This document shows, piece after piece, positions 2,520 to 30,191 of a stretch of 64,000 nt of DNA. Source of the stretch: Escherichia phage vB_EcoM_PhAPEC2. The position numbers were made by a program, and so were the translations under genes. The stretch is taken from sequence record NC_024794.1. One strand, written 5' to 3'. The notes under the pieces are model-generated. The model did no database searches. It was not told where the DNA came from and was given only the letters and a program-made list of their open reading frames with translations. The stretch's first letter is position 1. Every line of letters begins with the position of its first letter.

Positions 2520-3620
2520 TTACGCTGTGAAGATTTTATCCCACATCGCAACAACTGCATCTCGATTATACTTCTTCCATACTGCTTCAGCACGTTTAAC
2601 TCGAGCTTCGTATGTGTCAGTGAATTCTAATACAGCTTTTGTGTAAAGCGCAACTACTTCTTTCTTAGGAGTAGAGGAATCAATTTCTACACGCACAGTA
2701 TCTGGGTCGTATTCGAATGTCGCATGAGGATAATCCTTAAAAACTAACTGGATTACAGGGACACCTTTAGAGATGGCTTCAATAGAACTATTCTCTACCG
2801 TACCTGTGTCAGGACACGTATTAATAAGTGCTTTAGCTGTTTTAAGACGTTCCATGATTTCACTGTGTGGAGCATCAATAATAACAGGATATTTAGCTGG
2901 TGGTGCCCATTTGCTTGGACAATAACCAATACCATTTTCGCCTAGTGCTTTAATTGCTTCAAGAGCAACATCAGTACGACGCATTTTAGTGTCATAACGT
3001 TGTGCACTAATAATCAGATCAGTCGCTGGAAGAACTTCAGGTTTCTCATTCAAACAAATAACCGGATAATCTTCGGCTTCAAACAATGGATTTGCTCGCC
3101 AATAATCATAATCAATTTTGTCAGTAAGAGCTGAAGTCATATGACAATATTTACGTTCAAATTCACGGAAGGCTTTAGTAGGAGCATAACTCTTACCACC
3201 ATTCTTATGAATTTGAATAGTCTGGTCCCAAATTTGAACAATGCCACGAGATACCGGTTCAAATGGTGTTGCCATAAAATTCTTATGAACTTTAGAGAGA
3301 CCTGCGTCTTTAATTGCCTGAACGGTTAGTTTAGTCGGTTCCATAGTAACAACAAAATCGTATTCATGGATGCCGGCTAGTTCAACAATCTTACGAGCCA
3401 TAGTATAACTCATACCTAGACTGAATTTTGTCAGATGACCAACAGGATGGTGTGTAACTTTCCAATCACCAAACGTGTCATTATCAAAGCCGATATAATC
3501 AATATCAGCACCGATGGATACAAGATATTTCAACACATTTAAATGTACTGCTTCAAGACCACCTTGTACACGGTCAGGGTTAAATGGGACTGCACGAGAT
3601 GGGATAAACATAACTTTCAT
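2520..3620 (-). CDS. GT-B (GT4-like) glycosyltransferase; candidate hmC sugar (arabinosyl) transferase
   Basis: 366 aa; C-terminal EX7E-like motif TGTVENSSIEAISKGVPVI typical of GT4 retaining glycosyltransferases; third ORF from the rIIA end, matching the position of the RB69 ORF003c-type transferase as I recall it. Confidence 0.6.
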   Translation of the reverse strand: MKVMFIPSRAVPFNPDRVQGGLEAVHLNVLKYLVSIGADIDYIGFDNDTFGDWKVTHHPVGHLTKFSLGMSYTMARKIVELAGIHEYDFVVTMEPTKLTVQAIKDAGLSKVHKNFMATPFEPVSRGIVQIWDQTIQIHKNGGKSYAPTKAFREFERKYCHMTSALTDKIDYDYWRANPLFEAEDYPVICLNEKPEVLPATDLIISAQRYDTKMRRTDVALEAIKALGENGIGYCPSKWAPPAKYPVIIDAPHSEIMERLKTAKALINTCPDTGTVENSSIEAISKGVPVIQLVFKDYPHATFEYDPDTVRVEIDSSTPKKEVVALYTKAVLEFTDTYEARVKRAEAVWKKYNRDAVVAMWDKIFTA

Positions 3621-3629
3621 AATTAAGCC

Positions 3630-3665
3630 TTATTAAAATTAAAATGAAGCTCCCGAAGGAGCTTA
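3630..3665 (-). terminator. intrinsic terminator after gene 39
   Basis: minus strand AAGCTCC-UUCG-GGAGCUU hairpin starting at the stop codon, then U-rich tract. Confidence 0.55.
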
Positions 3666-5480: not shown

Positions 5481-5499
5481 GTTGTCTCCTCGTTATGAA

Positions 5500-5531
5500 G
5501 GTATTCTATCATCCGAAATCTAAAGCAAAAA
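5500..5531 (-). promoter_or_regulatory. MotA-dependent middle promoter for gene 39
   Basis: minus strand TTTTGCTTTA (MotA box), 12 nt, TAGAAT, then SD and ATG; MotA box overlaps terminator U-tract. Confidence 0.6.
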
Positions 5532-5546
5532 GGGCCGAAGCCCTTA
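5524..5546 (-). terminator. intrinsic terminator
   Basis: minus strand AAGGGC-UUCG-GCCCUU followed by UUUUU. Confidence 0.6.
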
Positions 5547-5969
5547 TTTAAATTTAATTTTCTGAAGTGCATCAATTGCAGCCAAACGCCCTTGTTCACT
5601 TTTAACTGTAATGACCACATCGCCTGATACGATCACCGAACCATCAACAAATTCTATAGAACCTTTTTTGAAATCGACAGCTGTATCTGGTTCTGGAACT
5701 TCTTCAAAGAATTTAAATTCTGCACCATAAAGCAGAATATCACCTTGCATACTATGAATAGTTCGGCCATAATCGCCTACGGCTTCTACAGCAATAATCG
5801 AAACGCCGTAACCAATCATCTCTTCCACAATAAAATCTTTAGACAATAAAGTAGTATGCAGATTAGTATTAAGACGTTTACCAGTCGTATTAAGAAGTCT
5901 CAAGAAATTATCTTCCTGTCCTTTGATAATACGATATTTCTTACCAACTTCAAAACCTTTAAAAGCCAT
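5544..5969 (-). CDS. hypothetical protein
   Basis: 141-aa ORF with SD AAGAAGGG; followed by UUCG-hairpin terminator. Confidence 0.55.
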   Translation of the reverse strand: MAFKGFEVGKKYRIIKGQEDNFLRLLNTTGKRLNTNLHTTLLSKDFIVEEMIGYGVSIIAVEAVGDYGRTIHSMQGDILLYGAEFKFFEEVPEPDTAVDFKKGSIEFVDGSVIVSGDVVITVKSEQGRLAAIDALQKIKFK

Positions 5970-5971
5970 AA

Positions 5972-6151
5972 TTAACCCTTCTTAAGTAAGTCGTAAAAAC
6001 CACCGTTCACATGTTTAGGAGCAGAAGCCCGACGAGTAGACAGACGATGACATTCAGGGCAAACATCGTTTTCTCGTTCAGAAATCCTTTTAATTTTTTC
6101 ATATTCATGACCACAATCTTCAGATTGACATTTATAGTCGTATAACGGCAT
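5972..6151 (-). CDS. small zinc-ribbon protein (CxxC...CxxC)
   Basis: 59-aa ORF not in track (below 60 aa); [18 protein letters not shown]...CPECH; start overlaps upstream stop (TAATG). Confidence 0.45.
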   Translation of the reverse strand: MPLYDYKCQSEDCGHEYEKIKRISERENDVCPECHRLSTRRASAPKHVNGGFYDLLKKG

Positions 6152-6564
6152 TATTGTTCCTTAAAGTGAGCTTTCAACATTTGATACAAAGACCATGCCT
6201 GGTCGTTATTTTCGATAGTAATCGTCATCACAGGAAATTCAGACAATTCGTCAAGTTCACCAGAATCTTGCTCTTCAGACGCTTGATACGGATTTCCAAC
6301 TTCGTCAAAGAACTCTGCTTCGTTCGTGGAGAGCCAGATAAAGTTTTCATCAAGGATATCACCGCCTGTTGCGTATCCAACCATGCCAGTAGATGTCACA
6401 ATTTTAGTAGGACGTCCAAGATGGTCAACATCTAATACTTTAAATGGTTCCATGCCAAGACGTCGTGCATAAATCCCATTATCAGTGTGGTTTTTAATAA
6501 ACTCTTCTTGGACACGTTTATCTTTAAATTGGTACCATGAGTTAACGCGGAATTTATTAGCCAT
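6151..6564 (-). CDS. hypothetical protein
   Basis: track ORF 6151..6582; likely start at internal Met (MANKF) overlapping upstream stop as TAATG with SD AAGGAAA. Confidence 0.5.
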
Positions 6565-6791
6565 TAGTAAGTTTCCTTCCAATAAGTTGTACCATTTTCA
6601 GTGATTTCACGGAAGATACCATAGATAGGCATTTCATCACCGAGTTTTTCGTAAACGTAAACCACTTCAGTGTAGCATAAAAATTCAGTCCAGTTTTTCT
6701 GTACAACAACTAAATCAGGATTAAACAGAACATCTTCAAACTCATCGATGTTTGAATCAGTAGTTACGTTTTTAATGATTTGACGTTTCAT
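6564..6791 (-). CDS. hypothetical protein
   Basis: 75 aa, strong SD AAGAGGAGAA, early promoter upstream. Confidence 0.5.
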
Positions 6792-6807
6792 AATATTCTC
6801 CTCTTGT

Positions 6808-6850
6808 TTTTGATAGGTCTATAGTATCATAGACCATAGTTGTTGTACAT
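6808..6850 (-). promoter_or_regulatory. early (sigma70-type) promoter
   Basis: minus strand TGTACA, 17 nt, TACTAT, then SD AAGAGGAGAA. Confidence 0.45.
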
Positions 6851-7374
6851 CATTTTAGCAAAATAAAATCAACTTGTTCTGCCAATGAACGTCTGAACAT
6901 TAATTGACAGCTTCCGAGGATGAAATCAGGTGCTTCATAGACCGCGATGTAGTATCCTTTAGCTTTCAAGAGTTCAACATCCACCTGGTCATCAAACCAT
7001 GCATAAACCGCGTCAACACTTTCAAATCCAAAATAGAACCCTTGAGCCCAATCTTCACTCAATTCAAATGTGTGCTCAATTCTATGGTATCTTAAGATAT
7101 TTTGTTCAAGGAGTTTGTCTTCATTTACTGTAGGACGATTAGGGACATTATAGTTGTCGCCGTGATGGTAGAAGTTACCTGAGATTATTCCATGTTTATC
7201 AAGGAACTCCCATGTTTCTTCAGAGTTGTCGGTGCCTGACCAACCGTATGGCGAACGAGGTTCTTTATTCCAAGAGGTTTCCCAAATTCTGACGGCTTTA
7301 CCGTCTTCGATAGCAATTCCTGGTAATGATTCACGTTGAGTACAAAAACTACGTTCTACGCGGTAAACTAACAT
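6850..7374 (-). CDS. hypothetical protein
   Basis: track ORF 6850..7431 reads through a promoter; SD GGAGAA precedes internal ATG (MLVYRVERSF). Confidence 0.6.
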   Translation of the reverse strand: MLVYRVERSFCTQRESLPGIAIEDGKAVRIWETSWNKEPRSPYGWSGTDNSEETWEFLDKHGIISGNFYHHGDNYNVPNRPTVNEDKLLEQNILRYHRIEHTFELSEDWAQGFYFGFESVDAVYAWFDDQVDVELLKAKGYYIAVYEAPDFILGSCQLMFRRSLAEQVDFILLK

Positions 7375-15249: not shown

Positions 15250-15771
15250 TCAGTAACCATTATCCTGACGTTCAAAGTTGTGTTGGTTTTTCAAGTAGTA
15301 AAGTTTAAAGATTTCTTCAGCAGAAAGACCCAGACCTTGGAACATATTTAGAACGAAATGCAGAATATCAATCATTTCAAATTTAATTTCAAGCTGGTCT
15401 TCAGGAGACAGTTCATCGATACGACGATTTCGATATTCAGCATGTTGTGCTTTCCATGGCTTCCATACAGAGCTAGCGGCTTTCTCACCATTGCTCATAC
15501 CGCCAAGTGAAGTCAACAATTCACGGAATTCATCATCAATATAATCTTTCTGATTACGCAGCCAATCAACAACATCGCCAGCAGTGGCCAATTCATCAGG
15601 ATGTTTGTTATGTTCAGGCTTGTCATTTGCCAGACGAACCTGTAAAGATTTCTGCATATCAAGCATTACCTGCAGTGGGTCTTTATCTTCGTGAATCAGA
15701 GCATTAAAATAAGCTTCTTCTGCTTTATCAACACCAGAAATAAGTTGTGAACATTCGTTAAAGTGTGCCAT
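15250..15771 (-). CDS. 56: dCTPase/dUTPase (dCTP pyrophosphatase, MazG-like)
   Basis: track ORF 15250..15786; MAHFNEC start as in T4 gp56; conserved EIKFE..DI.HFVLNMF block. Confidence 0.8.
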   Translation of the reverse strand: MAHFNECSQLISGVDKAEEAYFNALIHEDKDPLQVMLDMQKSLQVRLANDKPEHNKHPDELATAGDVVDWLRNQKDYIDDEFRELLTSLGGMSNGEKAASSVWKPWKAQHAEYRNRRIDELSPEDQLEIKFEMIDILHFVLNMFQGLGLSAEEIFKLYYLKNQHNFERQDNGY

Positions 15772-15860
15772 TATTTTTCCTTTCAATTCAGTATAAGAGA
15801 GTTAATTCTAACATTAATTTTATAAAGCGTAATAAATAATAAGGTAACTAAGGAGATATT

Positions 15861-17802: not shown

Positions 17803-18462
17803 TTAACCTCGATTCATAAATGCATTAAATATTTGGTCATCAACAGAAATTTCTAATTCGACTTCAATTGCTTCGGCCTTTTCTTCAGGTGGTAATTCGT
17901 ATCCACACACTACAATTTTTTCATCGATATCAAAATATGCAGAAGCAATACGATTAATGTTATTTTCAGTTAAGTCCAAATCAACATCAACATCTTTTTG
18001 GCCTACACTTAAAGGATAACTAATACGGGTTATTTTATTATCTTTAACAAAGAGTCCACCAACATACTCTGTACTACGTTTGAAGTCTACACGTTTCCGA
18101 ATTGAAAGATATGATACATCTTTACCGTGAGCTCGGCTCATAGGACATAATGAATAACTAGAATAAGAGATGTCAAATCCTACACCTTCAATATGAGCCA
18201 ACGTGTCATGGTTAAACCAATTATAATCATATGCCAAATCCATTATATTGTAATATGTGAAAGGCACCGGATTAACATCATATGTTGTACCTTTAAAATC
18301 TGCCCAGGCAACGATTTCGTTATCTTTAACAATTACAAAAATTACACCAAGATGGTATCCGTTATTATTTTCATTCGGCGTTATATTATAACATTGCGCA
18401 TTAGGAAATTTACCATATTTAAATGGTGCGTTTTTGTGCATGTAATAAATCATATTATTCAC
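17803..18462 (-). CDS. hypothetical protein
   Basis: 219-aa ORF. Confidence 0.55.
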   Translation of the reverse strand: MNNMIYYMHKNAPFKYGKFPNAQCYNITPNENNNGYHLGVIFVIVKDNEIVAWADFKGTTYDVNPVPFTYYNIMDLAYDYNWFNHDTLAHIEGVGFDISYSSYSLCPMSRAHGKDVSYLSIRKRVDFKRSTEYVGGLFVKDNKITRISYPLSVGQKDVDVDLDLTENNINRIASAYFDIDEKIVVCGYELPPEEKAEAIEVELEISVDDQIFNAFMNRG

Positions 18463-22033: not shown

Positions 22034-22375
22034 TTAAAAGAATTTAAATTTTTTCTTGGTTCGTTCATTAAAAGCTTGTTGTACTTGCATTGTAACACAT
22101 TTTTCAACATGTGGTGCAAGTTCTGCTTTTCTGTCCTGGTCAAGAACTGCAAAGTCCATTACGATTTTACCATCAACCCAGTCTAGTTTTGTAATATAGA
22201 CTATATGATGGGAACCGTCTTCAAGTGTAATCAGAATCTCTTGAATGACATTTTCCATTGCTGAACGGATAATTTTAAGAGATTCATTAAACACTCGTTC
22301 TTTGCGAATGTCTTCCCCTTCCGAAGAAGGGGATTCATCAACGATTTCTAGATTTAAATCATCGAGATTATTCAT
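22034..22375 (-). CDS. 40: hypothetical protein at gene 40 position
   Basis: track ORF 22034..22396; likely start at internal ATG overlapping the uvsX stop; synteny only. Confidence 0.45.
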   Translation of the reverse strand: MNNLDDLNLEIVDESPSSEGEDIRKERVFNESLKIIRSAMENVIQEILITLEDGSHHIVYITKLDWVDGKIVMDFAVLDQDRKAELAPHVEKCVTMQVQQAFNERTKKKFKFF

Positions 22376-23540
22376 CGAAATCTTCCATTTCGTCAAGGTC
22401 GTTTTCTATATCTGCTGCAGACGGAGCATCAGAAGTTTTAACCGGAACTTTAGTTGTTGCTTTGCAATTAATAAGGTCGTTAACAGCGTCATCAACTTCT
22501 TTAATAGAAGAGATAGCACCTAGTTTATATTTAGTTTCAATTGCATCTCGGAAAGGTTTGTGTTTAAACAAAGGTCCCCAGAATTCTACACAATCAGTAG
22601 CTTTAGCACGCCACGATTTCTCTTCACGAATCATTTCGCCTGTTTCTTCGTCAAGGAATTCACGAGCATACCAGCCGGCTTTAGGCTTAACAACAAATCC
22701 AATTTCAGTTGCCATTTCTAACAAGCCACTGAATGGGTCGATACCACCATCAAAATTAACTGTGATTGGGAAAGTAGATTTTTCTTTAACTGTACGAGAT
22801 TTTTCTGCTTTCAACGTGAAGTCATAACCGGTCAATTCTGTACCTTCTTTAACCTGACGTTTAGAGATAAAGAATACAGTGTTAGCAGAGTAAAGAATAC
22901 CTGTACCACCACCCATAATCTCTTTAGGATACAATCCGCCAATTTCCATTGCGGTATGGTTAATTGCAACACACGGAATATCTTTAATAGTCAGATACGG
23001 GGTCACAATGCGGAACAGAGATTTAAGTGCCTTAGCACGAGACATATCACCTACAACTTTCTCGTTCAATGCATCTTCGGTTTCTTTCTTAGATGCAGTA
23101 TTACCGATTGAATCGATAAAGATAATAACTTTATCACCGCGTTCAATAGCGTCAAGCTGATTAGTCATATCAACTTTAAGTTGTTCGACAGATTGAATCG
23201 GAGTATGAACTACACGGTCTAAATCAACACCCATTGAACGAAAATAAGATTCCGAAGCACCGAATTCTGAGTCATAAAACAAACAGATTGCATCTTTATA
23301 TTTCTTCATATACGCTGCAACCATAGTCAGCCCAAACAACGTTTTAAAGTGTTTAGAAGGAGCAGCAAAAATAGTTAAGCCTGATTGCAATCCTGCATTC
23401 AGAGCACCACCTAGTGCAATATTCAACATCGGAATACGAGTAGGGACTTCATCACGATTATTAAACAGCTTAGACTTAGTCAAGTCTGCAGTCATTTTAG
23501 AAGTAGAAGCTTTAATCAGACGAGATTTTAAATCAGACAT
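22368..23540 (-). CDS. uvsX: UvsX recombinase (RecA-like)
   Basis: 390 aa; N-terminus MSDLKSRLIKASTSK; RecA core motifs. Confidence 0.92.
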   Translation of the reverse strand: MSDLKSRLIKASTSKMTADLTKSKLFNNRDEVPTRIPMLNIALGGALNAGLQSGLTIFAAPSKHFKTLFGLTMVAAYMKKYKDAICLFYDSEFGASESYFRSMGVDLDRVVHTPIQSVEQLKVDMTNQLDAIERGDKVIIFIDSIGNTASKKETEDALNEKVVGDMSRAKALKSLFRIVTPYLTIKDIPCVAINHTAMEIGGLYPKEIMGGGTGILYSANTVFFISKRQVKEGTELTGYDFTLKAEKSRTVKEKSTFPITVNFDGGIDPFSGLLEMATEIGFVVKPKAGWYAREFLDEETGEMIREEKSWRAKATDCVEFWGPLFKHKPFRDAIETKYKLGAISSIKEVDDAVNDLINCKATTKVPVKTSDAPSAADIENDLDEMEDFDE

Positions 23541-23638: not shown

Positions 23639-24187
23639 TTAACGGGCCCATTTGATGATTTCTGTAATCAAACCATTACGTTCGCTTGCATTAAATCCTA
23701 TAACTTTGTTAGCACCATCATGATTAAGTAATTGATACGTTTGGATTTTGTTATGAATTGCAAACTCTTCAAAATGTGAAATGACTGTATTAAAACCGAA
23801 TGAAGACAAAGTAATAAGGTCGTCTTCAAAACTTTCAGTCATTTCGTTACGTGTTAAAATAATTGTGAACACATCATGGTTTTGGCAAAGACGAACATAA
23901 TCCTGCTCATAAACATCAAGAACAGAGTCCGCATCTTGTCGAATACGTCCATAAACCCAGTTACTAATATATCCACGGTCTAACAGATAAATCTTAGTAG
24001 GGTCTAAATAATTCAACATCGTTTCGAAACAGCCAACTTCATTTCGAGACTTAACATCGAAACGTCCATCAACTGTTCGTTTAGGGAAATCAATCTTTAC
24101 ATATCTTTCACTAATTTCCATTATGTCATTAATGAAAGTTGTTTTACCGGCATTATCCGGGCCATCTACTAAAATAATTTTAGCCAT
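23639..24187 (-). CDS. P-loop kinase (NMP-kinase fold)
   Basis: 182 aa; Walker A GPDNAGKTT, LLDRGY motif; occupies the slot where T4 has beta-glucosyltransferase. Confidence 0.5.
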   Translation of the reverse strand: MAKIILVDGPDNAGKTTFINDIMEISERYVKIDFPKRTVDGRFDVKSRNEVGCFETMLNYLDPTKIYLLDRGYISNWVYGRIRQDADSVLDVYEQDYVRLCQNHDVFTIILTRNEMTESFEDDLITLSSFGFNTVISHFEEFAIHNKIQTYQLLNHDGANKVIGFNASERNGLITEIIKWAR

Positions 24188-24188
24188 T

Positions 24189-25091
24189 TTATTCCTCGAT
24201 TACGACATCTTCGTATTTAGGTATATTATACGGTGAAGAAATTAAAGCATTAAAGTAGATGAACTCACCAAGACCTGGATGGAATACTTCTTCAGGATTT
24301 TCGAAATATTGAATCTTCGGACGTCCTTTAAGAATTTGATAGTACTCAGTTTTAGTTGGATTAAAAATTCGAATCAGCGCTTCTTCAGGATACTTATTTC
24401 TGTCGAAACTATTATTTGGATCAGTTATATAAAGCGGTTGACCTAATTGAATTGCGCATTCAACAACTTGTTCAAAACGATAGCATGGGTCACTAATTCG
24501 AAATGGATGAAAAATACCATCTAGATGAATAGGAGCCAAATCACCTACAAGACGCTGCATGATGGAAGGACGTATAACTTTCTGAGTTACGATAATCTTA
24601 TTACCATCTGCACCTGCGTTAACCAGCACTTCTTTTTGACGTTCATTCAACACAGTAGTTTGAAGTGAACGATTAACTGACAACATATCGGTTTTTAAGA
24701 ATTCGTCAATATAAAAACGTGGTTTATTAGGGTCTGCCGTGATATTGAAATTGAATTCTACATCAAAAGCGCCGTCATATCCAGTGATATCTGTTATTAG
24801 AAAATCACAATCATAATAAGCAATTAATGAATCAACCACAAATTCATTTTCAGACCAGAAATATTTACGAGTGTTATACGCGTTATCTTTATACCATAAT
24901 GGAACAAACTTAAATTCCGGGAAAAGACGTTCACATTCTTTAATATCAGATGCATTACGTGGATATGTAATCACATCACCTGGATTAGCACGGTGCAAAT
25001 GAAGTTGGAAGTTGCCATCCTTAAGGATAGCATACTGTCCAGTTTCATAAGACCGCATACTCAAAATAGGTACGCGGAATTTATTAGCCAT
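24189..25091 (-). CDS. hypothetical protein (300 aa) in the beta-gt slot
   Basis: TAATG-coupled to gene 42; no motif recognised. Confidence 0.5.
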   Translation of the reverse strand: MANKFRVPILSMRSYETGQYAILKDGNFQLHLHRANPGDVITYPRNASDIKECERLFPEFKFVPLWYKDNAYNTRKYFWSENEFVVDSLIAYYDCDFLITDITGYDGAFDVEFNFNITADPNKPRFYIDEFLKTDMLSVNRSLQTTVLNERQKEVLVNAGADGNKIIVTQKVIRPSIMQRLVGDLAPIHLDGIFHPFRISDPCYRFEQVVECAIQLGQPLYITDPNNSFDRNKYPEEALIRIFNPTKTEYYQILKGRPKIQYFENPEEVFHPGLGEFIYFNALISSPYNIPKYEDVVIEE

Positions 25092-25807
25092 TAGTCAAGA
25101 AATCCTTTAACATAATCAAAATCACGTTCAAACACATGGGCACTTACCATGGTATGAGTATAATCACCAACTTCTACACCGCATTCGTTAGCGATATAAT
25201 GAAGTAATTTTCCTTGGAGATAAAAATCCAACTGCATAACAACAGCACAGTTCTGAGAACGCATATGGCAGTGGGTATAAAGCTTACCATCGCGAATATA
25301 ATAAGTCACTGAGTCAGTACATGGATATTCAAGCGTTTCGTCCGAATCAAGCAAAGCCTGATCAGAACTTTCTAGAATTTGGAACACAACTCTTCGAGAG
25401 TTAGGCTTCTCTTTAAGTTCTTTTAGAAGAGCTGGTAATTGGGCCGCAATGCGAGGACCGTAGAAAGTGTTGAAGTTCGCAGGCAAAACATCTGATTTAG
25501 GTTTAGAAATAAATTTAGCGACATTAGGATATGCCTTAAATGCTTCTTCTGCATCAGTACCACCAGAAATCATAAACTTCCAGAAGTCTTCGGCATATTC
25601 ATAAGAGATGCGGTTAATACGTGGGTCGGTCATTTTGAATGATGATGGAGTGTCAACAACTACTGTCATAGACCCAATTTCATTACAACGTCCAATACGA
25701 GAATCAGTTACGAATTCCGGGTTTTCTAAAATTTCACGATTGACTGCTTTAAATGCGGCTTGAAAATCTGCGGCTTTGATATATTTCATTGTGTTATGTT
25801 TTCCCAT
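25091..25807 (-). CDS. 42: dCMP hydroxymethylase (thymidylate-synthase fold)
   Basis: 238 aa; CTDSVTYYIRDGKLYTHCHMRSQN and AHVFERD align to remembered T4 gp42 (CTNTVQYLIRD...NMRSND, LHVYSRH). Confidence 0.85.
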   Translation of the reverse strand: MGKHNTMKYIKAADFQAAFKAVNREILENPEFVTDSRIGRCNEIGSMTVVVDTPSSFKMTDPRINRISYEYAEDFWKFMISGGTDAEEAFKAYPNVAKFISKPKSDVLPANFNTFYGPRIAAQLPALLKELKEKPNSRRVVFQILESSDQALLDSDETLEYPCTDSVTYYIRDGKLYTHCHMRSQNCAVVMQLDFYLQGKLLHYIANECGVEVGDYTHTMVSAHVFERDFDYVKGFLD

Positions 25808-25849: not shown

Positions 25850-26089
25850 TTATTTGAATTTCTTGGCAATGTTGATATAACGTAAAGCTTCAGAATCTAT
25901 ACTTCCAAGAACACTATGAAGGAATGCATCAGTGTAGTATTCCAATTGAACAGGTTCTTTAATCACTTTAGCCGCTTTGGTTTCAAACAGGCCCATAAGG
26001 GCCTTTTTAAGAATTTGTTCGTTAGTGTTCAGTTTAATAGTCAAAATCTCTTCATTAAGTTTATAATTAAAAGTTTTTCTAGAAATCAT
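25850..26089 (-). CDS. hypothetical protein
   Basis: 79 aa; ATGA-coupled to downstream gene. Confidence 0.45.
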   Translation of the reverse strand: MISRKTFNYKLNEEILTIKLNTNEQILKKALMGLFETKAAKVIKEPVQLEYYTDAFLHSVLGSIDSEALRYINIAKKFK

Positions 26090-27261
26090 TCCGGGTACCT
26101 CAAAGCGTCATCAGAGTTAGTTATATCAATAATAGATATGGAGTTTTCTGCTAACCCGTTTTTAGATAATTGACGTTTATAATACCTTTCACAATATGTA
26201 CACGTTGACCCACAGATTTCATTAGCACAATCAAAATCTGGATGTCTGAACCACCTTTTTTCTAAAAAGCCATCTAACAAAGAGGTTTCAATATTTACTG
26301 TATGTGAAAACTCAGTCTCATTTTCAAGAGTGAAAATAGTCTCTAAAGGCTTCCACAGTTCTAACAAATTACCTTCAAACTTTTCAGAAGCGTATGCTTC
26401 AAGAACTTTCAAAATGTAGTCTGTGCTACCTGTACGTCCTGAAACTTTGAATTGAGTGATACCAATATCATTATAAAGTTTCAAATCTTGTGGACGAACA
26501 AAACGAGTTCTCAACCAGTTAAATGGGTCTGTATCACGAGCTTTAATACAGTGCTGCATTGGATATCCGTTTAAGGATTTAGCATCATCAGCTGTAACAT
26601 CAGTACTATGGAAAATATAGCAAGAGTCACGATAGCTACAATGTGTTGTATACCCTTTACCAGCATTAGAACAGAACTCATTTACAAGAACTTCAAATAT
26701 TATATTGTTCTTATTGCAAAACTCTGCTGCACGCTTCAGGAAAGAAACTGAACGGTTCTTATGAATTCCGCAACAGACCTTTTTGATATTATATTGGTCA
26801 TGCAAGTATTTGATTTGAGTTACAGCATCGACATGTAGAATTGTTGAAACTTCAATCTCAATGTCTTTATTGACTTCACGAACAATTTCCATAACAACAG
26901 GGTTAGCGATAGTAATACGCCATACACCTATTGACCAAAGATACTGAACATAATCCTGAATAGCTTTCTTCTTCCACTCAACTAGTTCTCTTTTTGAACC
27001 AGGATTTATCGTGTTGAGTGTATAGTTAAAGCAAATACCTAATTCGTTACAACGTTTAACGTAATCTTCTAACATCTTTTTGTCAACGTCAGGAAGCCTA
27101 AAATCAGGTCTGGCTGCTACAAAAGCCATTTCTCTTGTAGAGCCGTATACTTCGTTTATCAAGCTATTAGGATAAGTTTTATTGAGCTCTACGATTTTAT
27201 CAAGAAGAGCTAAATCAAAATTCGTTCCAATTTTAAAAGTATTCATTTTTTTGCATCTCAC
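26086..27261 (-). CDS. U32-family-like protein (putative Fe-S enzyme)
   Basis: 391 aa; cysteine cluster EFCSNAGKGYTTHCSYRDSC and KVSGRTGS resembling the U32 KIEGR signature; assignment from motif memory. Confidence 0.45.
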   Translation of the reverse strand: MRCKKMNTFKIGTNFDLALLDKIVELNKTYPNSLINEVYGSTREMAFVAARPDFRLPDVDKKMLEDYVKRCNELGICFNYTLNTINPGSKRELVEWKKKAIQDYVQYLWSIGVWRITIANPVVMEIVREVNKDIEIEVSTILHVDAVTQIKYLHDQYNIKKVCCGIHKNRSVSFLKRAAEFCNKNNIIFEVLVNEFCSNAGKGYTTHCSYRDSCYIFHSTDVTADDAKSLNGYPMQHCIKARDTDPFNWLRTRFVRPQDLKLYNDIGITQFKVSGRTGSTDYILKVLEAYASEKFEGNLLELWKPLETIFTLENETEFSHTVNIETSLLDGFLEKRWFRHPDFDCANEICGSTCTYCERYYKRQLSKNGLAENSISIIDITNSDDALRYPE

Positions 27262-27302: not shown

Positions 27303-27689
27303 TTATAGATTCGGTTTATATGATTTAAATGTTTCGAATTCGCCTTTATTCATAAGAGCTTTGAATTCGTCAGGACGCATAGCTTTGTCGTCGATAATCC
27401 AATCATATACTGGTTTATGTGTTAGCAAATTATGGTACTTCAAGCCAATGTTTGCCAAGTTCTGAATCAGACTTGGGAGAATGTCAATTGCTATACGACC
27501 AGGACCTACTGACTTCATACCGCGAGCAGTGTAAAGCGTTATGGTATGCCCTGCATCATACAGGGCATTAATGGCAGACACCATTTCGACGTCTGGTTTG
27601 AAGTTCACGTAATCACGATTGTTATTCCACTCTGTTATACAATCATCGACATCAAAACAAAGATTAAGCATGTTTTCTACACGGTGCAT
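27303..27689 (-). CDS. small HAD-superfamily phosphatase
   Basis: track ORF 27303..27704; HAD motif I FDVDDCIT near N-terminus, later IIDDKA; start probably overlaps upstream stop. Confidence 0.55.
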   Translation of the reverse strand: MHRVENMLNLCFDVDDCITEWNNNRDYVNFKPDVEMVSAINALYDAGHTITLYTARGMKSVGPGRIAIDILPSLIQNLANIGLKYHNLLTHKPVYDWIIDDKAMRPDEFKALMNKGEFETFKSYKPNL

Positions 27690-29374
27690 TAGATTCGTTC
27701 CCATTGATGAGTGATATCGCCACCGATTGGACGATAAGAAACACCAGTTTCTTTATCAGTTAGTACCCATTTACCAGGATTTTTTGTAATCAGAGTAGCC
27801 GTTACAGGTTCTGCTACGTCATAACTAATAGAGCCGTCCTGAAGTACACGGCCCATGTTACGTAATTGCTTAGTCAGAAGTTCCATACCTTTATAATATG
27901 CGGCTACCGCTTTAAGTGGATTATTCTTGAAATAACCACCTAATGCAATCCAGATAATTGCCACAGCCAAATGATGATACTCGTTAAACGAACTCATCTT
28001 TCCATATTTGTAAACTAATGGATTGATGTTAATAGTCACATTACAAGTTGTTTCATCAATAGTAAACTGTCCCCAGGTCGGATTAGCGTTGAATTCATCA
28101 TAACCTGAAACAGCATAAAGCACTTTAGCTTCATCGTACAATTTTGGCCCGTAAATCTTGGTTTCGCCAAAATATCCACGAGGGTCGATAAACTTGACTT
28201 CGCCGTTATCAGTAATCATAGTATTACTGAAGTTAGGGTCACCATGAATAACAGAGTACTGTCCCTGAGAACGGTTATGATAACGAATAAGGTGTTCTAA
28301 AGCTTGTTTCAGCATTGGCTTCAGACGCCCAATCTTAGTGTAGTTCACATGGGTGATTTTACCAAATGAATCAATCAATGGTTGAATGCTTTCACAACGA
28401 TCAATAACTTTCGTATAGAATTCTTTAGTGAAATCACGACGAACAGTTTCAGGACTTACAAAATAAGTGTCTGTGCTGAATTTCAGTGCATCTAAAATTG
28501 CATCAACAATTTGTGGACGAGCAAGACTTGATTTGGATTTAATATATTCAAATGCCGGCTTACCTTTAATGCGTTCCATTTCAAAGTTATTTTCATTAAC
28601 AGAAACTAACTGAGGAACTGAATCTGATTTCACTTTAAGATACCATGAAATCTCATCTTTCTGAAGAGCTCGACCCTGTTCGGTTAATGCGAATTTAGTT
28701 ACAGTTTCTTCACCAATTTCAACTGCATTAAAACTACGATTAAGTTCACGAACTTCATGAGCTTTTTCAAGTTTAGGCATATCACCTAAATCAATTAGAT
28801 TCATAAGCTCTGATTTATTGAATGCGCTGCCGTAAAGGAATTCTACGAAATCACGTCCTTTGCAGTATTCATGAATTTCCTCATCGGTAGAACCCATATA
28901 GAATTCCCAGTCTTTGAACTGATAAATTCCTACAACATTACCACCTGTTGAACCTACGTTAGTGATATTTTCACCGTCGAAATTATATCGACATTCGTCA
29001 CCCTTAACATAGATTGCGTTAACATTCCAAGACCATGAACCAAAATCGGGAATAATATCACACCAGTTAACAATTACATTATGACCGTCTAAATCTTTGT
29101 GTAATTTAGCAAGAGCATAAGCAGAACCGTACGCTTCATCAACTGTACGAATAGTCACATTGAACCCTTCTTGCTCACAATAAGCTCGAACAGTTTCAGC
29201 AAATTTTGAATGAACTACTACAATAATTTCATCTGCGCCAAGGTCAGAATAAATTGTATACAAATTGCTCAGAATAGTGTCTTGTTTATAGTTAACAAGC
29301 ACCTTAGGAATATGATGCGTTATTGGATATAAACGAGTTGCCAATCCAGCACCAAGAATAACAGCTTTTTTCAT
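27689..29374 (-). CDS. bifunctional sugar-1-phosphate nucleotidyltransferase (RmlA-like) / APH-like sugar kinase
   Basis: 561 aa; N-terminal ILGAGLATRLYPIT (G-x-G-T-R-L-x-P-x-T signature); C-terminal HGDPNFSNTMI (Brenner HGD...N kinase loop). Confidence 0.7.
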   Translation of the reverse strand: MKKAVILGAGLATRLYPITHHIPKVLVNYKQDTILSNLYTIYSDLGADEIIVVVHSKFAETVRAYCEQEGFNVTIRTVDEAYGSAYALAKLHKDLDGHNVIVNWCDIIPDFGSWSWNVNAIYVKGDECRYNFDGENITNVGSTGGNVVGIYQFKDWEFYMGSTDEEIHEYCKGRDFVEFLYGSAFNKSELMNLIDLGDMPKLEKAHEVRELNRSFNAVEIGEETVTKFALTEQGRALQKDEISWYLKVKSDSVPQLVSVNENNFEMERIKGKPAFEYIKSKSSLARPQIVDAILDALKFSTDTYFVSPETVRRDFTKEFYTKVIDRCESIQPLIDSFGKITHVNYTKIGRLKPMLKQALEHLIRYHNRSQGQYSVIHGDPNFSNTMITDNGEVKFIDPRGYFGETKIYGPKLYDEAKVLYAVSGYDEFNANPTWGQFTIDETTCNVTININPLVYKYGKMSSFNEYHHLAVAIIWIALGGYFKNNPLKAVAAYYKGMELLTKQLRNMGRVLQDGSISYDVAEPVTATLITKNPGKWVLTDKETGVSYRPIGGDITHQWERI

Positions 29375-29404
29375 GTTGAAGTCCTCATTGGTAAGTAGGA
29401 GTAT

Positions 29405-29433
29405 TGTACACTATTCTAGTTAAAGCATTCATA
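29405..29433 (-). promoter_or_regulatory. MotA-type middle promoter for the nucleotidyltransferase/kinase gene
   Basis: minus strand AATGCTTTA, 12 nt, TACAAT, about 25 nt before the SD. Confidence 0.45.
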
Positions 29434-29559
29434 CTTTGCTTGTAGTCCAATCATAATCCATCCAATTACAAGTGTTGGAATCATTACTGGAGCCGTTAAG
29501 CTCCAGTAGATAGTCATGACAAGCATCAATAGTAAAAGTCCTATTGTTATTGCTTTCAT
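29416..29559 (-). CDS. small membrane peptide
   Basis: 47-aa hydrophobic ORF not in track; ATGA-coupled to the isomerase stop. Confidence 0.35.
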   Translation of the reverse strand: MKAITIGLLLLMLVMTIYWSLTAPVMIPTLVIGWIMIGLQAKYECFN

Positions 29560-30191
29560 TGTTCGCCTCGTAACATGGCACCTAGTGCACCGCCCGGGTG
29601 GAACTTAAGGAAATCATTAGAGGTAAATCCACGCTCAGACGAAAGGTTGATAGCGAACGTATCGATAAGCGCTAACAACAATGTAGTAGACATTGTCGGA
29701 GCTAAAGAGTTCTCGTCAACTTCTACCGCGATACCGGTACAGAACGTATAATCAAAAAGAGCTTCGTATTCTTGTGGAATGTCAGGGTTACAATGTAACA
29801 GAATCTGTTTAACCTGAGGACGAATCATACGAAGATGCTTAGCCACGCCTATCATTTCTTCAGTTTTACCAGAACGACTAATATGAATCAACACATCATT
29901 AGGCGCAATGAATCCTGCATCACCGTGAGAATAATGCCCAGTGTTCAAGTACATACTAGGGATACCGAGTGAAGCAAATGTCTCAGAAGCTTTAGTTGCA
30001 ATATTAGCATTCTTACCAACACCTGTAATAATTACTCGGCTTTCATAATTACTAAGTCCCGGGCGTCGAAGAGTTTCTAGAATAGCGTTATAACGAGCAG
30101 GGTTTTGACTAATTACTTTGGCCATAGCGGCCAAAGAAGAAGCTTGTTTTATGATTGCGTCAATAGCGATAGTAATAGGAGTAGTTTTCAT
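29556..30191 (-). CDS. SIS-domain sugar-phosphate isomerase, KdsD/GutQ-like arabinose-5-phosphate isomerase without CBS domains
   Basis: 211 aa; GVGKNANIATKASETFASLGIPS, HGDAG, ISRSG, LAPTMSTT, RGFTSNDF, HPGGALG all parallel E. coli KdsD SIS domain. Confidence 0.75.
   Translation of the reverse strand: MKTTPITIAIDAIIKQASSLAAMAKVISQNPARYNAILETLRRPGLSNYESRVIITGVGKNANIATKASETFASLGIPSMYLNTGHYSHGDAGFIAPNDVLIHISRSGKTEEMIGVAKHLRMIRPQVKQILLHCNPDIPQEYEALFDYTFCTGIAVEVDENSLAPTMSTTLLLALIDTFAINLSSERGFTSNDFLKFHPGGALGAMLRGEQ

What the first reader, a model, noticed from the sequence alone, without database searches (positions are those of the whole stretch)
23639..25091. Beta-glucosyltransferase slot occupied by a P-loop kinase and a 300-aa unknown
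T4 beta-gt sits between uvsX and gene 42. Here the slot holds a 182-aa NMP-kinase-fold protein (GPDNAGKTT, LLDRGY) and a 300-aa protein with no recognisable motif, both tightly coupled to gene 42. They may belong to the same modification system, for example a nucleotide kinase for a modified dNMP or a second transferase.
Basis: inference. Interest (0 to 1): 0.55.

Follow-up and report, generated by a model that had tools for sequence, protein, structure and literature searches.

The report
Phage DNA arabinosyltransferase plus nucleotide kinase
These two tightly coupled phage genes are near-identical copies of RB69 gp46:47 and gp45, already published as the predicted sugar transferase and nucleotide kinase of the pathway that replaces cytosine in phage DNA with arabinose-decorated 5-hydroxycytosine, so the finding is real but not new.

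Summary
Two minus-strand ORFs (182 aa, 23639-24187; 300 aa, 24189-25091) lie between uvsX and the gene-42 homolog, joined by TAATG and TAAAATG junctions. The window is a Mosigvirus (RB69-like, about 99% identical).

The neighbouring "gene 42" is not a hydroxymethylase. It is the flavin-dependent 5-hydroxy-dCMP synthase, about 98% identical to PDB 9iqc. The modification is arabinosyl-5-hydroxycytosine, not glucosyl-hmC.

The novelty rating is already known.

New comparative points:
- The transferase and kinase co-occur in 49 of 50 assessable loci.
- They are fused into one polypeptide in some phages, in both domain orders.
- They pair with either the ThyA-like hydroxylase or a U32 Fe-S-type protein.

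It is still unresolved whether the first sugar is added to DNA or to the mononucleotide. Neither protein has published biochemistry that I could read.

The parts
24189..25091 (-). GT1: 300-aa minimal GT-B glycosyltransferase, ortholog of RB69 gp46:47 and DLP3 gp79. Predicted first (base-proximal, alpha) arabinofuranosyltransferase acting on 5-hydroxycytosine.
23639..24187 (-). 182-aa thymidylate-kinase-fold NMP kinase, ortholog of RB69 gp45 and DLP3 gp78. Predicted kinase for the 5-substituted dCMP.
25091..25807 (-). ThyA-superfamily 5-hydroxy-dCMP synthase, flavin- and O2-dependent. This is the 'gene 42' of the finding and the ortholog of RB69 gp48.
   Evidence: About 98% identical to PDB 9iqc/9ir2/9iqu. 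Only 25% identical to T4 gp42. Carries Asn186 at the E. coli ThyA D169 position (RSQN versus T4 RSND), plus Asp194 (N177D) and Cys163. RB69 gp48 activity is shown in Lee 2026.
25850..26089 (-). 79-aa ORF of unknown function inside the cluster (RB69 ORF049c).
   Evidence: PHROG 8601, E 2.6e-50, unknown function. Present in only some related loci.
26086..27261 (-). U32 'peptidase'-family protein (RB69 gp50). Ten invariant cysteines. Candidate Fe-S redox enzyme and possibly an O2-independent hydroxylase. The likely true start is the ATG at 27249.
   Evidence: Pfam PF01136, E 7e-11, and PHROG 5757. Cysteine conservation. Adjacent to GT1 and the kinase in loci that lack a ThyA homolog.
27303..27704 (-). 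HAD phosphatase, AfhF / RB69 gp51 ortholog (Araf-1,5-bisphosphate to Araf-1-P).
   Evidence: PDB 9iqw, E 7.8e-88. Function of the HY126 ortholog as quoted in Lee 2026.
27689..29374 (-). Bifunctional sugar kinase / UDP-arabinose pyrophosphorylase, AfhE / RB69 gp52:53 ortholog.
   Evidence: Pfam NTP_transferase at the N-terminus, with weaker APH-like kinase-family hits (below Pfam cut-offs) in the C-terminal part. PHROG 4098. Lee 2026.
29556..30191 (-). Arabinose-5-phosphate isomerase (SIS domain), RB69 gp55 ortholog.
   Evidence: Pfam SIS. PHROG 5670, E 1.6e-116.
2520..3620 (-). Second GT-B arabinosyltransferase (RB69 gp3 ortholog; the 'Aat' of Mahler 2025 is equated with it by inference), 366 aa. 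Adds the second arabinose.
   Evidence: PDB 9iqz/9ir0 'phage HY126 glycosyltransferase', E 2.5e-252. Lee 2026 Table 1.
15250..15786 (-). gp56-type dCTP pyrophosphatase. It supplies dCMP and removes dCTP.
   Evidence: PHROG 173, E 1.8e-45. RB69p028 in Lee 2026 Table 1.

Best explanation
The window is an RB69-like (Mosigvirus) genome, and the two genes are part of its arabinosyl-5-hydroxycytosine pathway.

Proposed sequence of steps:
1. A gp56-type dCTPase makes dCMP.
2. The adjacent ThyA-like flavoenzyme (25091-25807) hydroxylates dCMP to 5-hydroxy-dCMP. This activity is shown for the RB69 and HY126 orthologs.
3. The 182-aa thymidylate-kinase-fold enzyme phosphorylates this 5-substituted dCMP to the diphosphate, so that it reaches the dNTP pool and is polymerised. 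This step is inferred. The canonical gp1-type dNMP kinase can also do it.
4. The 300-aa minimal GT-B glycosyltransferase transfers D-arabinofuranose from UDP-Araf onto the 5-hydroxyl, giving the base-proximal alpha-arabinose. UDP-Araf is made by the upstream isomerase, AfhE-like and AfhF-like genes. This step is inferred.
5. The 366-aa transferase at 2520-3620 adds the second arabinose on DNA.

By a modest margin I favour the T4 paradigm, in which the first sugar goes onto 5-hydroxycytosine already in DNA. The transferase and kinase are translationally coupled to the synthase, so the three are made together.
For: Identity: 98-99% DNA identity to Mosigviruses. The two proteins are identical to those of phage PhAPEC2 and about 99% identical to RB69 ORF045c-047c.

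Folds: GT-B for the 300-aa protein. Thymidylate-kinase type for the 182-aa protein, with a TMPK-style P-loop Asp, an FPxR motif and a DR..S(N) motif.

Literature:
- Lee et al. 2026 list RB69 gp46:47 as arabinosyltransferase 1 and gp45 as nucleotide kinase.
- They show that gp48 makes 5hodCMP, that gp159 phosphorylates it, and that later arabinoses are added on DNA.
- They note that mono-arabinosylated phage Thanatos has only this transferase.

Neighbouring genes match solved HY126 proteins.

Co-occurrence:
- tblastn finds the transferase in 347 phage records and the kinase in 342, with the same genus breakdown.
- In 53 related loci the kinase is present in 49 of 50 assessable cases and directly adjacent in 38.
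- All ThyA homologs next to GT1 plus kinase carry Asn at the D169 position. T4 and PS2, which are hmC phages without this kinase in the gene 43-uvsX interval I examined, carry Asp.
- The kinase remains with GT1 in phages that lack the arabinose-supply genes. This ties it to the base side of the pathway, not the sugar side.
Against: I could read no enzymology for either protein.

The DLP3 ortholog of the transferase showed no activity on 5hoC-DNA with UDP-Araf or UDP-Arap. That result is 'data not shown', and the authors say they cannot tell whether the first sugar goes on DNA or on the mononucleotide.

The gp1-type dNMP kinase already phosphorylates 5hodCMP and boosts 5hodC incorporation in vivo. 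A second kinase for the same substrate therefore looks redundant, yet it is conserved down to about 25% identity.

The window's kinase does not reach the Pfam or NCBIfam cut-offs for thymidylate kinase. Its base-binding region could not be aligned reliably.

Confidence: 0.55

Rival explanations
1. Pre-replicative glycosylation. The 300-aa transferase arabinosylates the free nucleotide 5-hydroxy-dCMP. The thymidylate-kinase-like enzyme is the dedicated kinase for the bulky arabinosyl-5-O-dCMP, which the gp1-type kinase may not accept. The polymerase then incorporates an already glycosylated dCTP. Only the second arabinose is added on DNA.
For: - The transferase and kinase are fused into single polypeptides in both orders. 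GT1-kinase: P0381, P0382, P0388, P0389, P0403, P0407, P0369. Kinase-GT1: P0379. hhalign of the fused domains against the kinase family gives 97.8% probability, and domain hits are confirmed in loci L063 and L064.
- Co-occurrence and adjacency are near-universal, with overlapping stop and start codons.
- This model explains why a second kinase is kept alongside a gp1-type kinase that already handles 5hodCMP.
- It fits the negative result for the DLP3 ortholog on 5hoC-DNA.
- No unglycosylated 5hodC species is mentioned among the nucleosides reported for virion DNA.
- From general knowledge, 5-hydroxycytosine in DNA is a mutagenic oxidative lesion excised by E. coli Nth/Nei. Masking the hydroxyl before polymerisation would therefore be advantageous.
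Against: - To my knowledge, every characterised phage DNA glycosylation is post-replicative (own knowledge, not checked here).
- 5hodCTP is polymerisable.
- Fusions can arise trivially from overlapping neighbouring genes. HAD-GT1 fusions also exist, so fusion shows pathway linkage, not necessarily consecutive steps.
- The fold and pI of the transferase do not discriminate. T4 alpha-GT is also acidic, and the DNA-acting second transferase hits the same PDB structures.
Confidence: 0.3
2. The 182-aa protein is an ordinary thymidylate kinase that boosts dTTP supply. This is a housekeeping role unrelated to cytosine modification, as many GenBank records annotate it.
For: It has a thymidylate-kinase fold and motifs. 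It is annotated 'thymidylate kinase' in many records.
Against: - T4-type phages phosphorylate dTMP with gp1 (from general knowledge).
- This kinase was found in the same number of Escherichia phage records (175) as GT1. Thomas 2018 describes the module as having no T4 homologs.
- It tracks GT1 and the 5-hydroxylase genes across Straboviridae, jumbo-type and PolIII-alpha-type phages, and it is fused to GT1 in some.
- It scores 16 bits against TIGR00041, whose cut-off is 83.
Confidence: 0.07
3. The 300-aa protein is a UDP-pentose pyrophosphorylase (a sugar-activating enzyme), not a transferase. This was reported for the Shewanella phage Thanatos homolog TH1_063.
For: In vitro, His-tagged TH1_063 with UTP and xylose-1-P gave a UDP-xylose peak.
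Against: - The cluster already encodes a nucleotidyltransferase domain, whose HY126 ortholog has the pyrophosphorylase activity.
- The Thanatos transfer assays used acceptors without the 5-hydroxyl, so their negative transferase result is uninformative.
- Contamination by a host enzyme was not excluded.
Confidence: 0.04

Closest known systems
RB69 gp46:47 ('arabinosyltransferase 1') and gp45 ('nucleotide kinase'), with DLP3 gp79 and gp78 (Lee et al., Nucleic Acids Res 2026, PMC13326640)
   Different: No functional difference. The transferase ORF is intact here, whereas the RB69 reference record has one extra T that splits it into ORF046c and ORF047c. In that paper both assignments rest on structure prediction only. 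The kinase is listed in a table without discussion.
Escherichia phage HY126 Afh pathway (He et al., Nat Chem Biol 2026) and Bas46/Bas47 5ara-hC (Mahler et al., Cell Host Microbe 2025)
   Same: The window's synthase, HAD phosphatase and 366-aa transferase match the solved HY126 proteins 9iqc, 9iqw and 9iqz at phmmer E-values of 1.6e-161, 7.8e-88 and 2.5e-252; the printed 9iqc alignment is about 98% identical. Bas46 and Bas47 are 98.2% identical in DNA.
   Different: Neither paper is in the library. I do not know what they say about these two genes. Neither protein has a PDB entry.
T4 beta-glucosyltransferase (GT63)
   Same: Same genomic slot between uvsX and gene 42. Both have a GT-B architecture. 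Both decorate a 5-substituent of cytosine with a UDP-activated sugar.
   Different: - No detectable sequence relationship (hhalign probability 0.1%).
- 300 versus 351 aa, and pI 5.1 versus 9.05.
- The acceptor is 5-hydroxyl rather than 5-hydroxymethyl, and the sugar is arabinofuranose rather than glucose.
- PS2 has a family member and beta-gt as separate adjacent genes.
Thymidylate kinases (for example vaccinia A48R 2v54, S. tokodaii 2plr, human DTYMK)
   Different: - 20-30 residues shorter.
- Below the family cut-offs.
- The base-stacking and O4-recognition helix is not alignable.
- A family-specific F-x-D-D-L-I motif lies in the region following Arg113.
- Strict linkage to GT1 and a pyrimidine-5-hydroxylase.
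T4 gp1 deoxynucleoside monophosphate kinase
   Same: It is the functional analogue in the T4 paradigm (it phosphorylates hm-dCMP; T4 biochemistry from general knowledge). The RB69 ortholog gp159 phosphorylates 5hodCMP.
Sucrose-phosphate synthase and other GT4-type retaining GT-B enzymes (6kih, BshA, PimA, MshA)
   Same: Closest solved folds. A conserved Arg198, Lys247 and H271-P-G-x-x-E276 lie in the C-terminal half, where GT4 enzymes bind the nucleotide sugar. Like the SPS/SPP pairing (own knowledge), some family members are fused to a HAD phosphatase domain.
   Different: 7-11% sequence identity. No Pfam Glycos_transf_1 hit. Much smaller (300 aa). The acceptor is a modified nucleobase.

Membership tests
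RB69 gp46:47 / DLP3 gp79 family (PHROG 3891, 'arabinosyltransferase 1') | Full-length sequence homology to the family | tested here: met
   PHROG 3891, E 4.7e-155, over residues 3-299. 99% identity to RB69 ORF047c+046c. Foldseek hits to both RB69 halves and to phage KARL-1.
RB69 gp46:47 / DLP3 gp79 family (PHROG 3891, 'arabinosyltransferase 1') | Encoded next to a 5-hydroxy-dCMP synthase (ThyA homolog with Asn at the E. coli D169 position) and with UDP-arabinose supply genes | tested here: met
   Synthase at 25091-25807 with Asn186. Isomerase, AfhE-like and AfhF-like genes at 27303-30191.
RB69 gp46:47 / DLP3 gp79 family (PHROG 3891, 'arabinosyltransferase 1') | Arabinosyl transfer to 5-hydroxycytosine | not testable with these tools
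   Needs enzymology. The only reported attempt (DLP3 gp79 on 5hoC-DNA) was negative.
GT-B fold glycosyltransferases (GT4-like) | Two Rossmann-like domains with an inter-domain cleft | tested here: met
GT-B fold glycosyltransferases (GT4-like) | C-terminal-domain nucleotide-sugar binding residues (Arg/Lys for phosphates, conserved Glu of the EX7E-type motif) | tested here: inconclusive
   R198, K247 and H271-P272-G273 are invariant and E276 is near-invariant in 70 sequences. No residue-level structural superposition was available to confirm equivalence.
GT-B fold glycosyltransferases (GT4-like) | Match to Pfam Glycos_transf_1 or Glyco_trans_4 profiles | tested here: not met
   No Pfam-A or NCBIfam hit at E <= 0.1. 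No PDB sequence-profile hit.
T4 beta-glucosyltransferase (GT63) | Sequence or profile homology to T4 b-gt | tested here: not met
Thymidylate kinase (PF02223 / TIGR00041) | TMPK fold | tested here: met
Thymidylate kinase (PF02223 / TIGR00041) | P-loop GxD/ExxGK(S/T)T and DR(Y/H) motif | tested here: met
   G9-P-D11-N-A-G14-K15-T-T17 and D70-R71. G9, G14, K15, D70 and R71 are invariant across 24 diverse family members. They align to the human, M. tuberculosis and E. coli TMPK motifs. The human and M. tuberculosis sequences were recalled from memory.
Thymidylate kinase (PF02223 / TIGR00041) | Score above the curated family cut-off | tested here: not met
   No PF02223 hit for the window protein. 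TIGR00041 gives 16.3 bits against a cut-off of 83.25. More distant family members get sub-threshold PF02223 hits.
Thymidylate kinase (PF02223 / TIGR00041) | Thymine-recognising residues (stacking Phe plus Arg to O4) and dTMP specificity | tested here: inconclusive
   This region is shortened and aligns differently to the human and M. tuberculosis enzymes. Model confidence is lowest there, with pLDDT 62-67 for residues 31-50.
T4 gp1-type dNMP kinase | Structural or sequence similarity to T4 gp1 (1dek) | tested here: not met
[quoted passage not shown] | Catalytic Cys, N177D (dCMP preference) and D169N signature | tested here: met
   Cys163, Asp194 and Asn186 in alignment with T4 gp42. About 98% identical to 9iqc. 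The signature is defined in Lee 2026.

The most novel reading that the evidence does not exclude
The transferase and kinase form an obligate two-enzyme unit that glycosylates the nucleotide before replication. GT1 would arabinosylate 5-hydroxy-dCMP. The TMPK-like kinase, physically fused to GT1 in some phages, would return the sugar-bearing nucleotide to the dNTP pool, so the polymerase copies DNA with a pre-glycosylated dCTP. This would be the first natural pre-replicative DNA glycosylation.

A corollary concerns the highly conserved, Cys-rich U32 protein. It is the only hydroxylase candidate beside GT1 and the kinase in ten loci that lack a ThyA homolog. It would then be an O2-independent pyrimidine-5-hydroxylase that lets gut phages make the base anaerobically.
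Probability: 0.25. Interest if true: 0.75.

Novelty: already known. Interest (0 to 1): 0.3.

Why it matters
Arabinosyl-5-hydroxycytosine DNA protects RB69-like phages, which are common in phage-therapy collections, from restriction enzymes, Brig1-type glycosylases and DNA-targeting CRISPR systems. Knowing which genes make it helps with phage engineering, sequencing and host-range prediction.

The two genes in this finding are the least characterised steps of an otherwise recently solved pathway. Nobody has yet shown what the first transferase accepts or why a second nucleotide kinase is needed.

The comparative data gathered here sharpen that question into direct experiments. Those data are the transferase-kinase fusions, the near-obligate co-occurrence, and the pairing with either a flavin ThyA-like enzyme or a U32 Fe-S-type partner. 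They also suggest that glycosylated 5-hydroxypyrimidine DNA may be widespread in small PolIII-alpha-type phages that nobody has examined chemically.

Tried and rejected
- Sequence-only identification of the 300-aa protein failed. Pfam, NCBIfam and a 70-sequence profile against all PDB chains gave nothing.
- I tested whether it is a diverged beta-gt or a paralog of the 366-aa transferase. hhalign probabilities were 0.1% and 0.3%, so I rejected both.
- I used pI as a proxy for DNA versus small-molecule acceptor. It was not discriminating: GT1 family median is 4.97, T4 beta-GT 9.05, but T4 alpha-GT 6.11.
- I tried to read the kinase's base specificity from alignment to TMPKs. The base-binding helix aligns inconsistently, so I abandoned this.
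- Promoter and terminator scans of the cluster were at chance level (23 found versus 26 expected). The kinase-uvsX intergenic RNA fold has z -0.3. Rfam gave nothing.
- The U32 protein against E. coli UbiU/UbiV gave only weak similarity (hhalign 12.5%; NCBIfam E about 1e-3). The hydroxylase idea rests on synteny and conserved cysteines, not on demonstrated homology to a characterised hydroxylase.
- He et al. 2026 and Mahler et al. 2025 could not be retrieved. Searches for Afh and Aat gene names found no open text describing these two proteins.
- I considered a role for the kinase on the sugar side. It stays with GT1 in loci that lack all arabinose-supply genes, so I rejected this as unlikely.
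Full report
**Observation**

The two ORFs exist exactly as described: 23639-24187 (-) of 182 aa and 24189-25091 (-) of 300 aa. They lie between uvsX (22368-23540) and a gene-42/ThyA homolog (25091-25807), all on the minus strand.

The sequence shows translational coupling. The synthase stop overlaps the transferase start (TAATG). The transferase ends GAGGAATAAAATG, giving a Shine-Dalgarno-like element and a 1-nt spacer before the kinase start.

The quoted kinase motifs are present. In T4 the order is uvsX - segA - b-gt - 42, so the 'slot' premise is right.

Nothing else is hidden in the interval:
- Opposite-strand ORFs are only 40-55 aa.
- There is no Rfam hit.
- Promoter- and terminator-like sites are at chance level.
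- The kinase-uvsX spacer has no unusual fold.
- G+C is 0.32-0.36, slightly below the 0.34-0.43 of neighbouring windows.

**What the window is**

The 1.9-kb region is 98-99% identical to more than 150 Mosigvirus (RB69-like) genomes, including Bas46 and Bas47. Both proteins are identical to those of phage vB_EcoM_PhAPEC2.

In the RB69 reference they correspond to ORF045c (kinase) and ORF046c+047c. The RB69 record carries one extra T that splits the 300-aa ORF. Lee et al. attribute this split to a sequencing error.

**What the proteins are**

T4 beta-GT is not in the top 60, and hhalign finds no relationship to it.

**The corrected chemistry**

The neighbouring 'gene 42' is only 25% identical to T4 gp42. 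It carries Asn186 where T4 and E. coli ThyA have Asp (the D169N signature), plus Asp194 (N177D). It is about 98% identical to PDB 9iqc/9ir2/9iqu.

Lee et al. (NAR 2026) show three things:
- RB69 DNA contains mono- and di-arabinosylated 5-HYDROXYcytosine.
- gp48 makes 5-hydroxy-dCMP with a flavin and O2.
- The gp1-type kinase gp159 phosphorylates it.

Their Table 1 lists gp46:47 as 'arabinosyltransferase 1' and gp45 as 'nucleotide kinase', from the same kind of fold searches.

The rest of the cluster is in the window:
- U32 protein, 26086-27261
- HAD phosphatase, 27303-27704 (PDB 9iqw)
- AfhE-like bifunctional enzyme, 27689-29374
- arabinose-5-P isomerase, 29556-30191
- second transferase, 2520-3620 (PDB 9iqz)
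- dCTPase, 15250-15786

**What is not settled**

No enzymology on either protein was available to me.
- The DLP3 ortholog of the transferase was inactive on 5hoC-DNA. The authors state they cannot tell whether the first arabinose is added to the mononucleotide or to DNA.
- The kinase is never discussed in that paper.
- A Thanatos paper reports UDP-xylose pyrophosphorylase activity for the 300-aa homolog. This is hard to reconcile with a GT-B fold.
- He et al. 2026 and Mahler et al. 2025 were not retrievable.

**New comparative evidence**

(a) tblastn finds the transferase in 347 phage records and the kinase in 342, with the same genus breakdown.

(b) I examined 53 related loci from IMG/VR and metagenomes. 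The kinase is present in 49 of 50 assessable cases: 35 immediately downstream of GT1 (usually overlapping by 4-19 nt), 3 immediately upstream, and 11 elsewhere in the cluster. The pair persists at about 38% and 31% identity in 355-kb jumbo-type contigs.

(c) A profile search with the kinase family uncovers a large group of 40-55-kb phages with PolIII-alpha and DnaG. Their conserved module is SSB-like, gp56-like NTP pyrophosphatase, kinase, GT1-like, U32-like, PolIII-alpha. It has no ThyA homolog and no arabinose genes. I saw it in 7 of 7 loci examined.

(d) An exhaustive search of 1.84 billion representatives finds only 231 GT1 relatives. Among them are single polypeptides carrying GT1 plus the kinase in both orders, and others carrying a HAD phosphatase plus GT1. 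Two of the fusions were confirmed in their genomic context (L063, L064), again next to U32 genes and without a ThyA homolog.

(e) Every GT1 locus with enough flank has a ThyA homolog, a U32 gene, or both: 29, 10 and 15 loci respectively.

(f) In Serratia phage PS2, which has an hmC-type gene 42 (Asp at the signature position), a degenerate GT1 relative sits beside ba-gt and b-gt, and no kinase is present.

**Mechanism**

The kinase tracks the base-hydroxylation side of the pathway, not the sugar supply. It has the hallmarks of a dNMP kinase. I conclude that it phosphorylates the 5-substituted dCMP.

GT1 is the only transferase in mono-arabinosylated phages and is the invariant partner of the hydroxylase. 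I conclude that it installs the first sugar on the 5-hydroxyl.

Whether that happens on DNA (T4 paradigm; my slight preference, about 0.55) or on the mononucleotide (about 0.3) cannot be decided computationally.

Points favouring the nucleotide-level model:
- the fusions
- the apparent redundancy with gp159
- the negative DNA assay
- the known vulnerability of 5-hydroxycytosine in DNA to base-excision repair

Points favouring the DNA-level model:
- every characterised precedent
- the demonstrated polymerisability of 5hodCTP
- the DNA-level action of the later transferases

**Side observation**

The U32 protein is the most conserved member of the module. E-values are about 1e-170 to 1e-186 between the window's protein and the U32 proteins of the PolIII-alpha-type and fusion-carrying loci. 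It has ten invariant cysteines. In ten loci it is the only candidate for the hydroxylation step.

The U32 family includes the O2-independent hydroxylases UbiU/V, RlhA and TrhP (my own knowledge). Direct similarity to UbiU is weak. It may be an anaerobic alternative to the O2-dependent flavoenzyme. Lee et al. label it 'sugar or heterocycle reductase'.

**Verdict**

The novelty rating is already known, because these are near-identical orthologs of published, computationally assigned RB69 genes.

Interest is modest (0.3). It comes from the open question of acceptor level and kinase role, and from the fusion and U32 observations, which are directly testable.

Noticed in passing
window 26086-27261 (-); loci L049, L050, L053, L057-L060, L063-L065: The U32 'peptidase'-family gene in the cluster is extremely conserved. 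E-values are about 1e-170 to 1e-186 between the window's protein and the U32 proteins of unrelated PolIII-alpha-type phage loci. It has ten invariant cysteines. In ten GT1-plus-kinase loci that lack a ThyA homolog it is the only candidate hydroxylase. It may be an O2-independent pyrimidine-5-hydroxylase, as UbiU/V, RlhA and TrhP are in the same family. Direct similarity to UbiU is weak.
   Followed up: partly
proteins P0379, P0381, P0382, P0388, P0389, P0403, P0407, P0369; loci L063:6001-7725 and L064:6001-7662: Natural fusion proteins carry the GT1 domain and the TMPK-like kinase domain in one chain, in both orders. Their contexts are phage-like: T4 gp13, SIS, AfhE-like and U32 in one locus; dUTPase/DCD, dCMP deaminase and U32 in the other.
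   Followed up: yes
proteins P0289, P0299, P0301, P0303, P0319, P0323, P0345, P0376: A second fusion type has an N-terminal extension of about 185 aa with HAD-phosphatase-like motifs (DFDG..., GDD..D), supported only by motif reading and a weak Pfam hit (E 0.0037 for P0289), joined to GT1. This is reminiscent of sucrose-phosphate synthase/phosphatase. I did not look up the genomic context.
   Followed up: partly
loci L049, L050, L053, L057-L060 (40-55 kb contigs): A widespread group of small phages with PolIII-alpha and DnaG has a conserved module: SSB-like, gp56-like NTP pyrophosphatase (PHROG 173), kinase, GT1-like, U32. The module sits right before the polymerase gene. This suggests an uncharacterised glycosylated 5-hydroxypyrimidine DNA in these phages. 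L058 has an extra radical-SAM/SPASM gene in the module.
   Followed up: partly
L066 (Serratia phage PS2, NC_024121) 3453-4379: A 308-aa distant GT1 relative (hhalign 99.2%) sits directly after an hmC-type gene 42 and before ba-gt and b-gt. No kinase is present. Several family-invariant residues appear to be lost on reading its sequence against the family motifs, so it may be inactive or repurposed.
   Followed up: partly
L051 (IMG/VR contig, PolA-type phage) 3615-6201: This locus has a ThyA homolog with Ser, not Asn or Asp, at the D169 signature position. It is followed by a GT1-like gene and a UDP-galactopyranose mutase, with no kinase in the 10.5-kb contig. It may be a galactofuranosyl variant like Rhizobium phage RL38J1.
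   Followed up: no
L055 (RB69 NC_004928) 5992-6892 versus window 24189-25091: The RB69 reference sequence has one extra T that splits the transferase into ORF047c and ORF046c. The window and most relatives have the intact 299-300-aa ORF. The window also has one extra Lys codon at position 4.
   Followed up: yes
window 24189-25091 (database names): The 300-aa protein is misnamed in public records. UniRef calls it 'RNA polymerase binding protein', and phage Kc304 annotates it 'cysteine desulfurase'. The kinase is variously 'thymidylate kinase' or hypothetical.
   Followed up: no
window 25850-26089 (-): A 79-aa ORF (PHROG 8601, unknown function) lies between the U32 gene and the synthase. Its start overlaps the U32 stop by 4 nt. 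It is present only in some Straboviridae loci.
   Followed up: no
L001 7396-7998; L002 7435-7992: In jumbo-type contigs (up to 355 kb), an unassigned gene of 185-200 aa lies between the ThyA homolog and GT1. A Flavodoxin_2-family gene lies upstream of the SIS gene and could supply reduced flavin to the hydroxylase.
   Followed up: no
window 17803-18462 (-): A 219-aa protein matches Pfam AdfA (anti-DarT factor A), E 7e-119. It is an anti-defence gene unrelated to the finding.
   Followed up: no
window 26086-27261 and 27303-27704: The mechanical ORF starts are probably a few codons too long. PHROG and RB69 annotation start the U32 protein at Met5 (ATG at 27249). The HY126 HAD structure 9iqw aligns from residue 5.
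   Followed up: no
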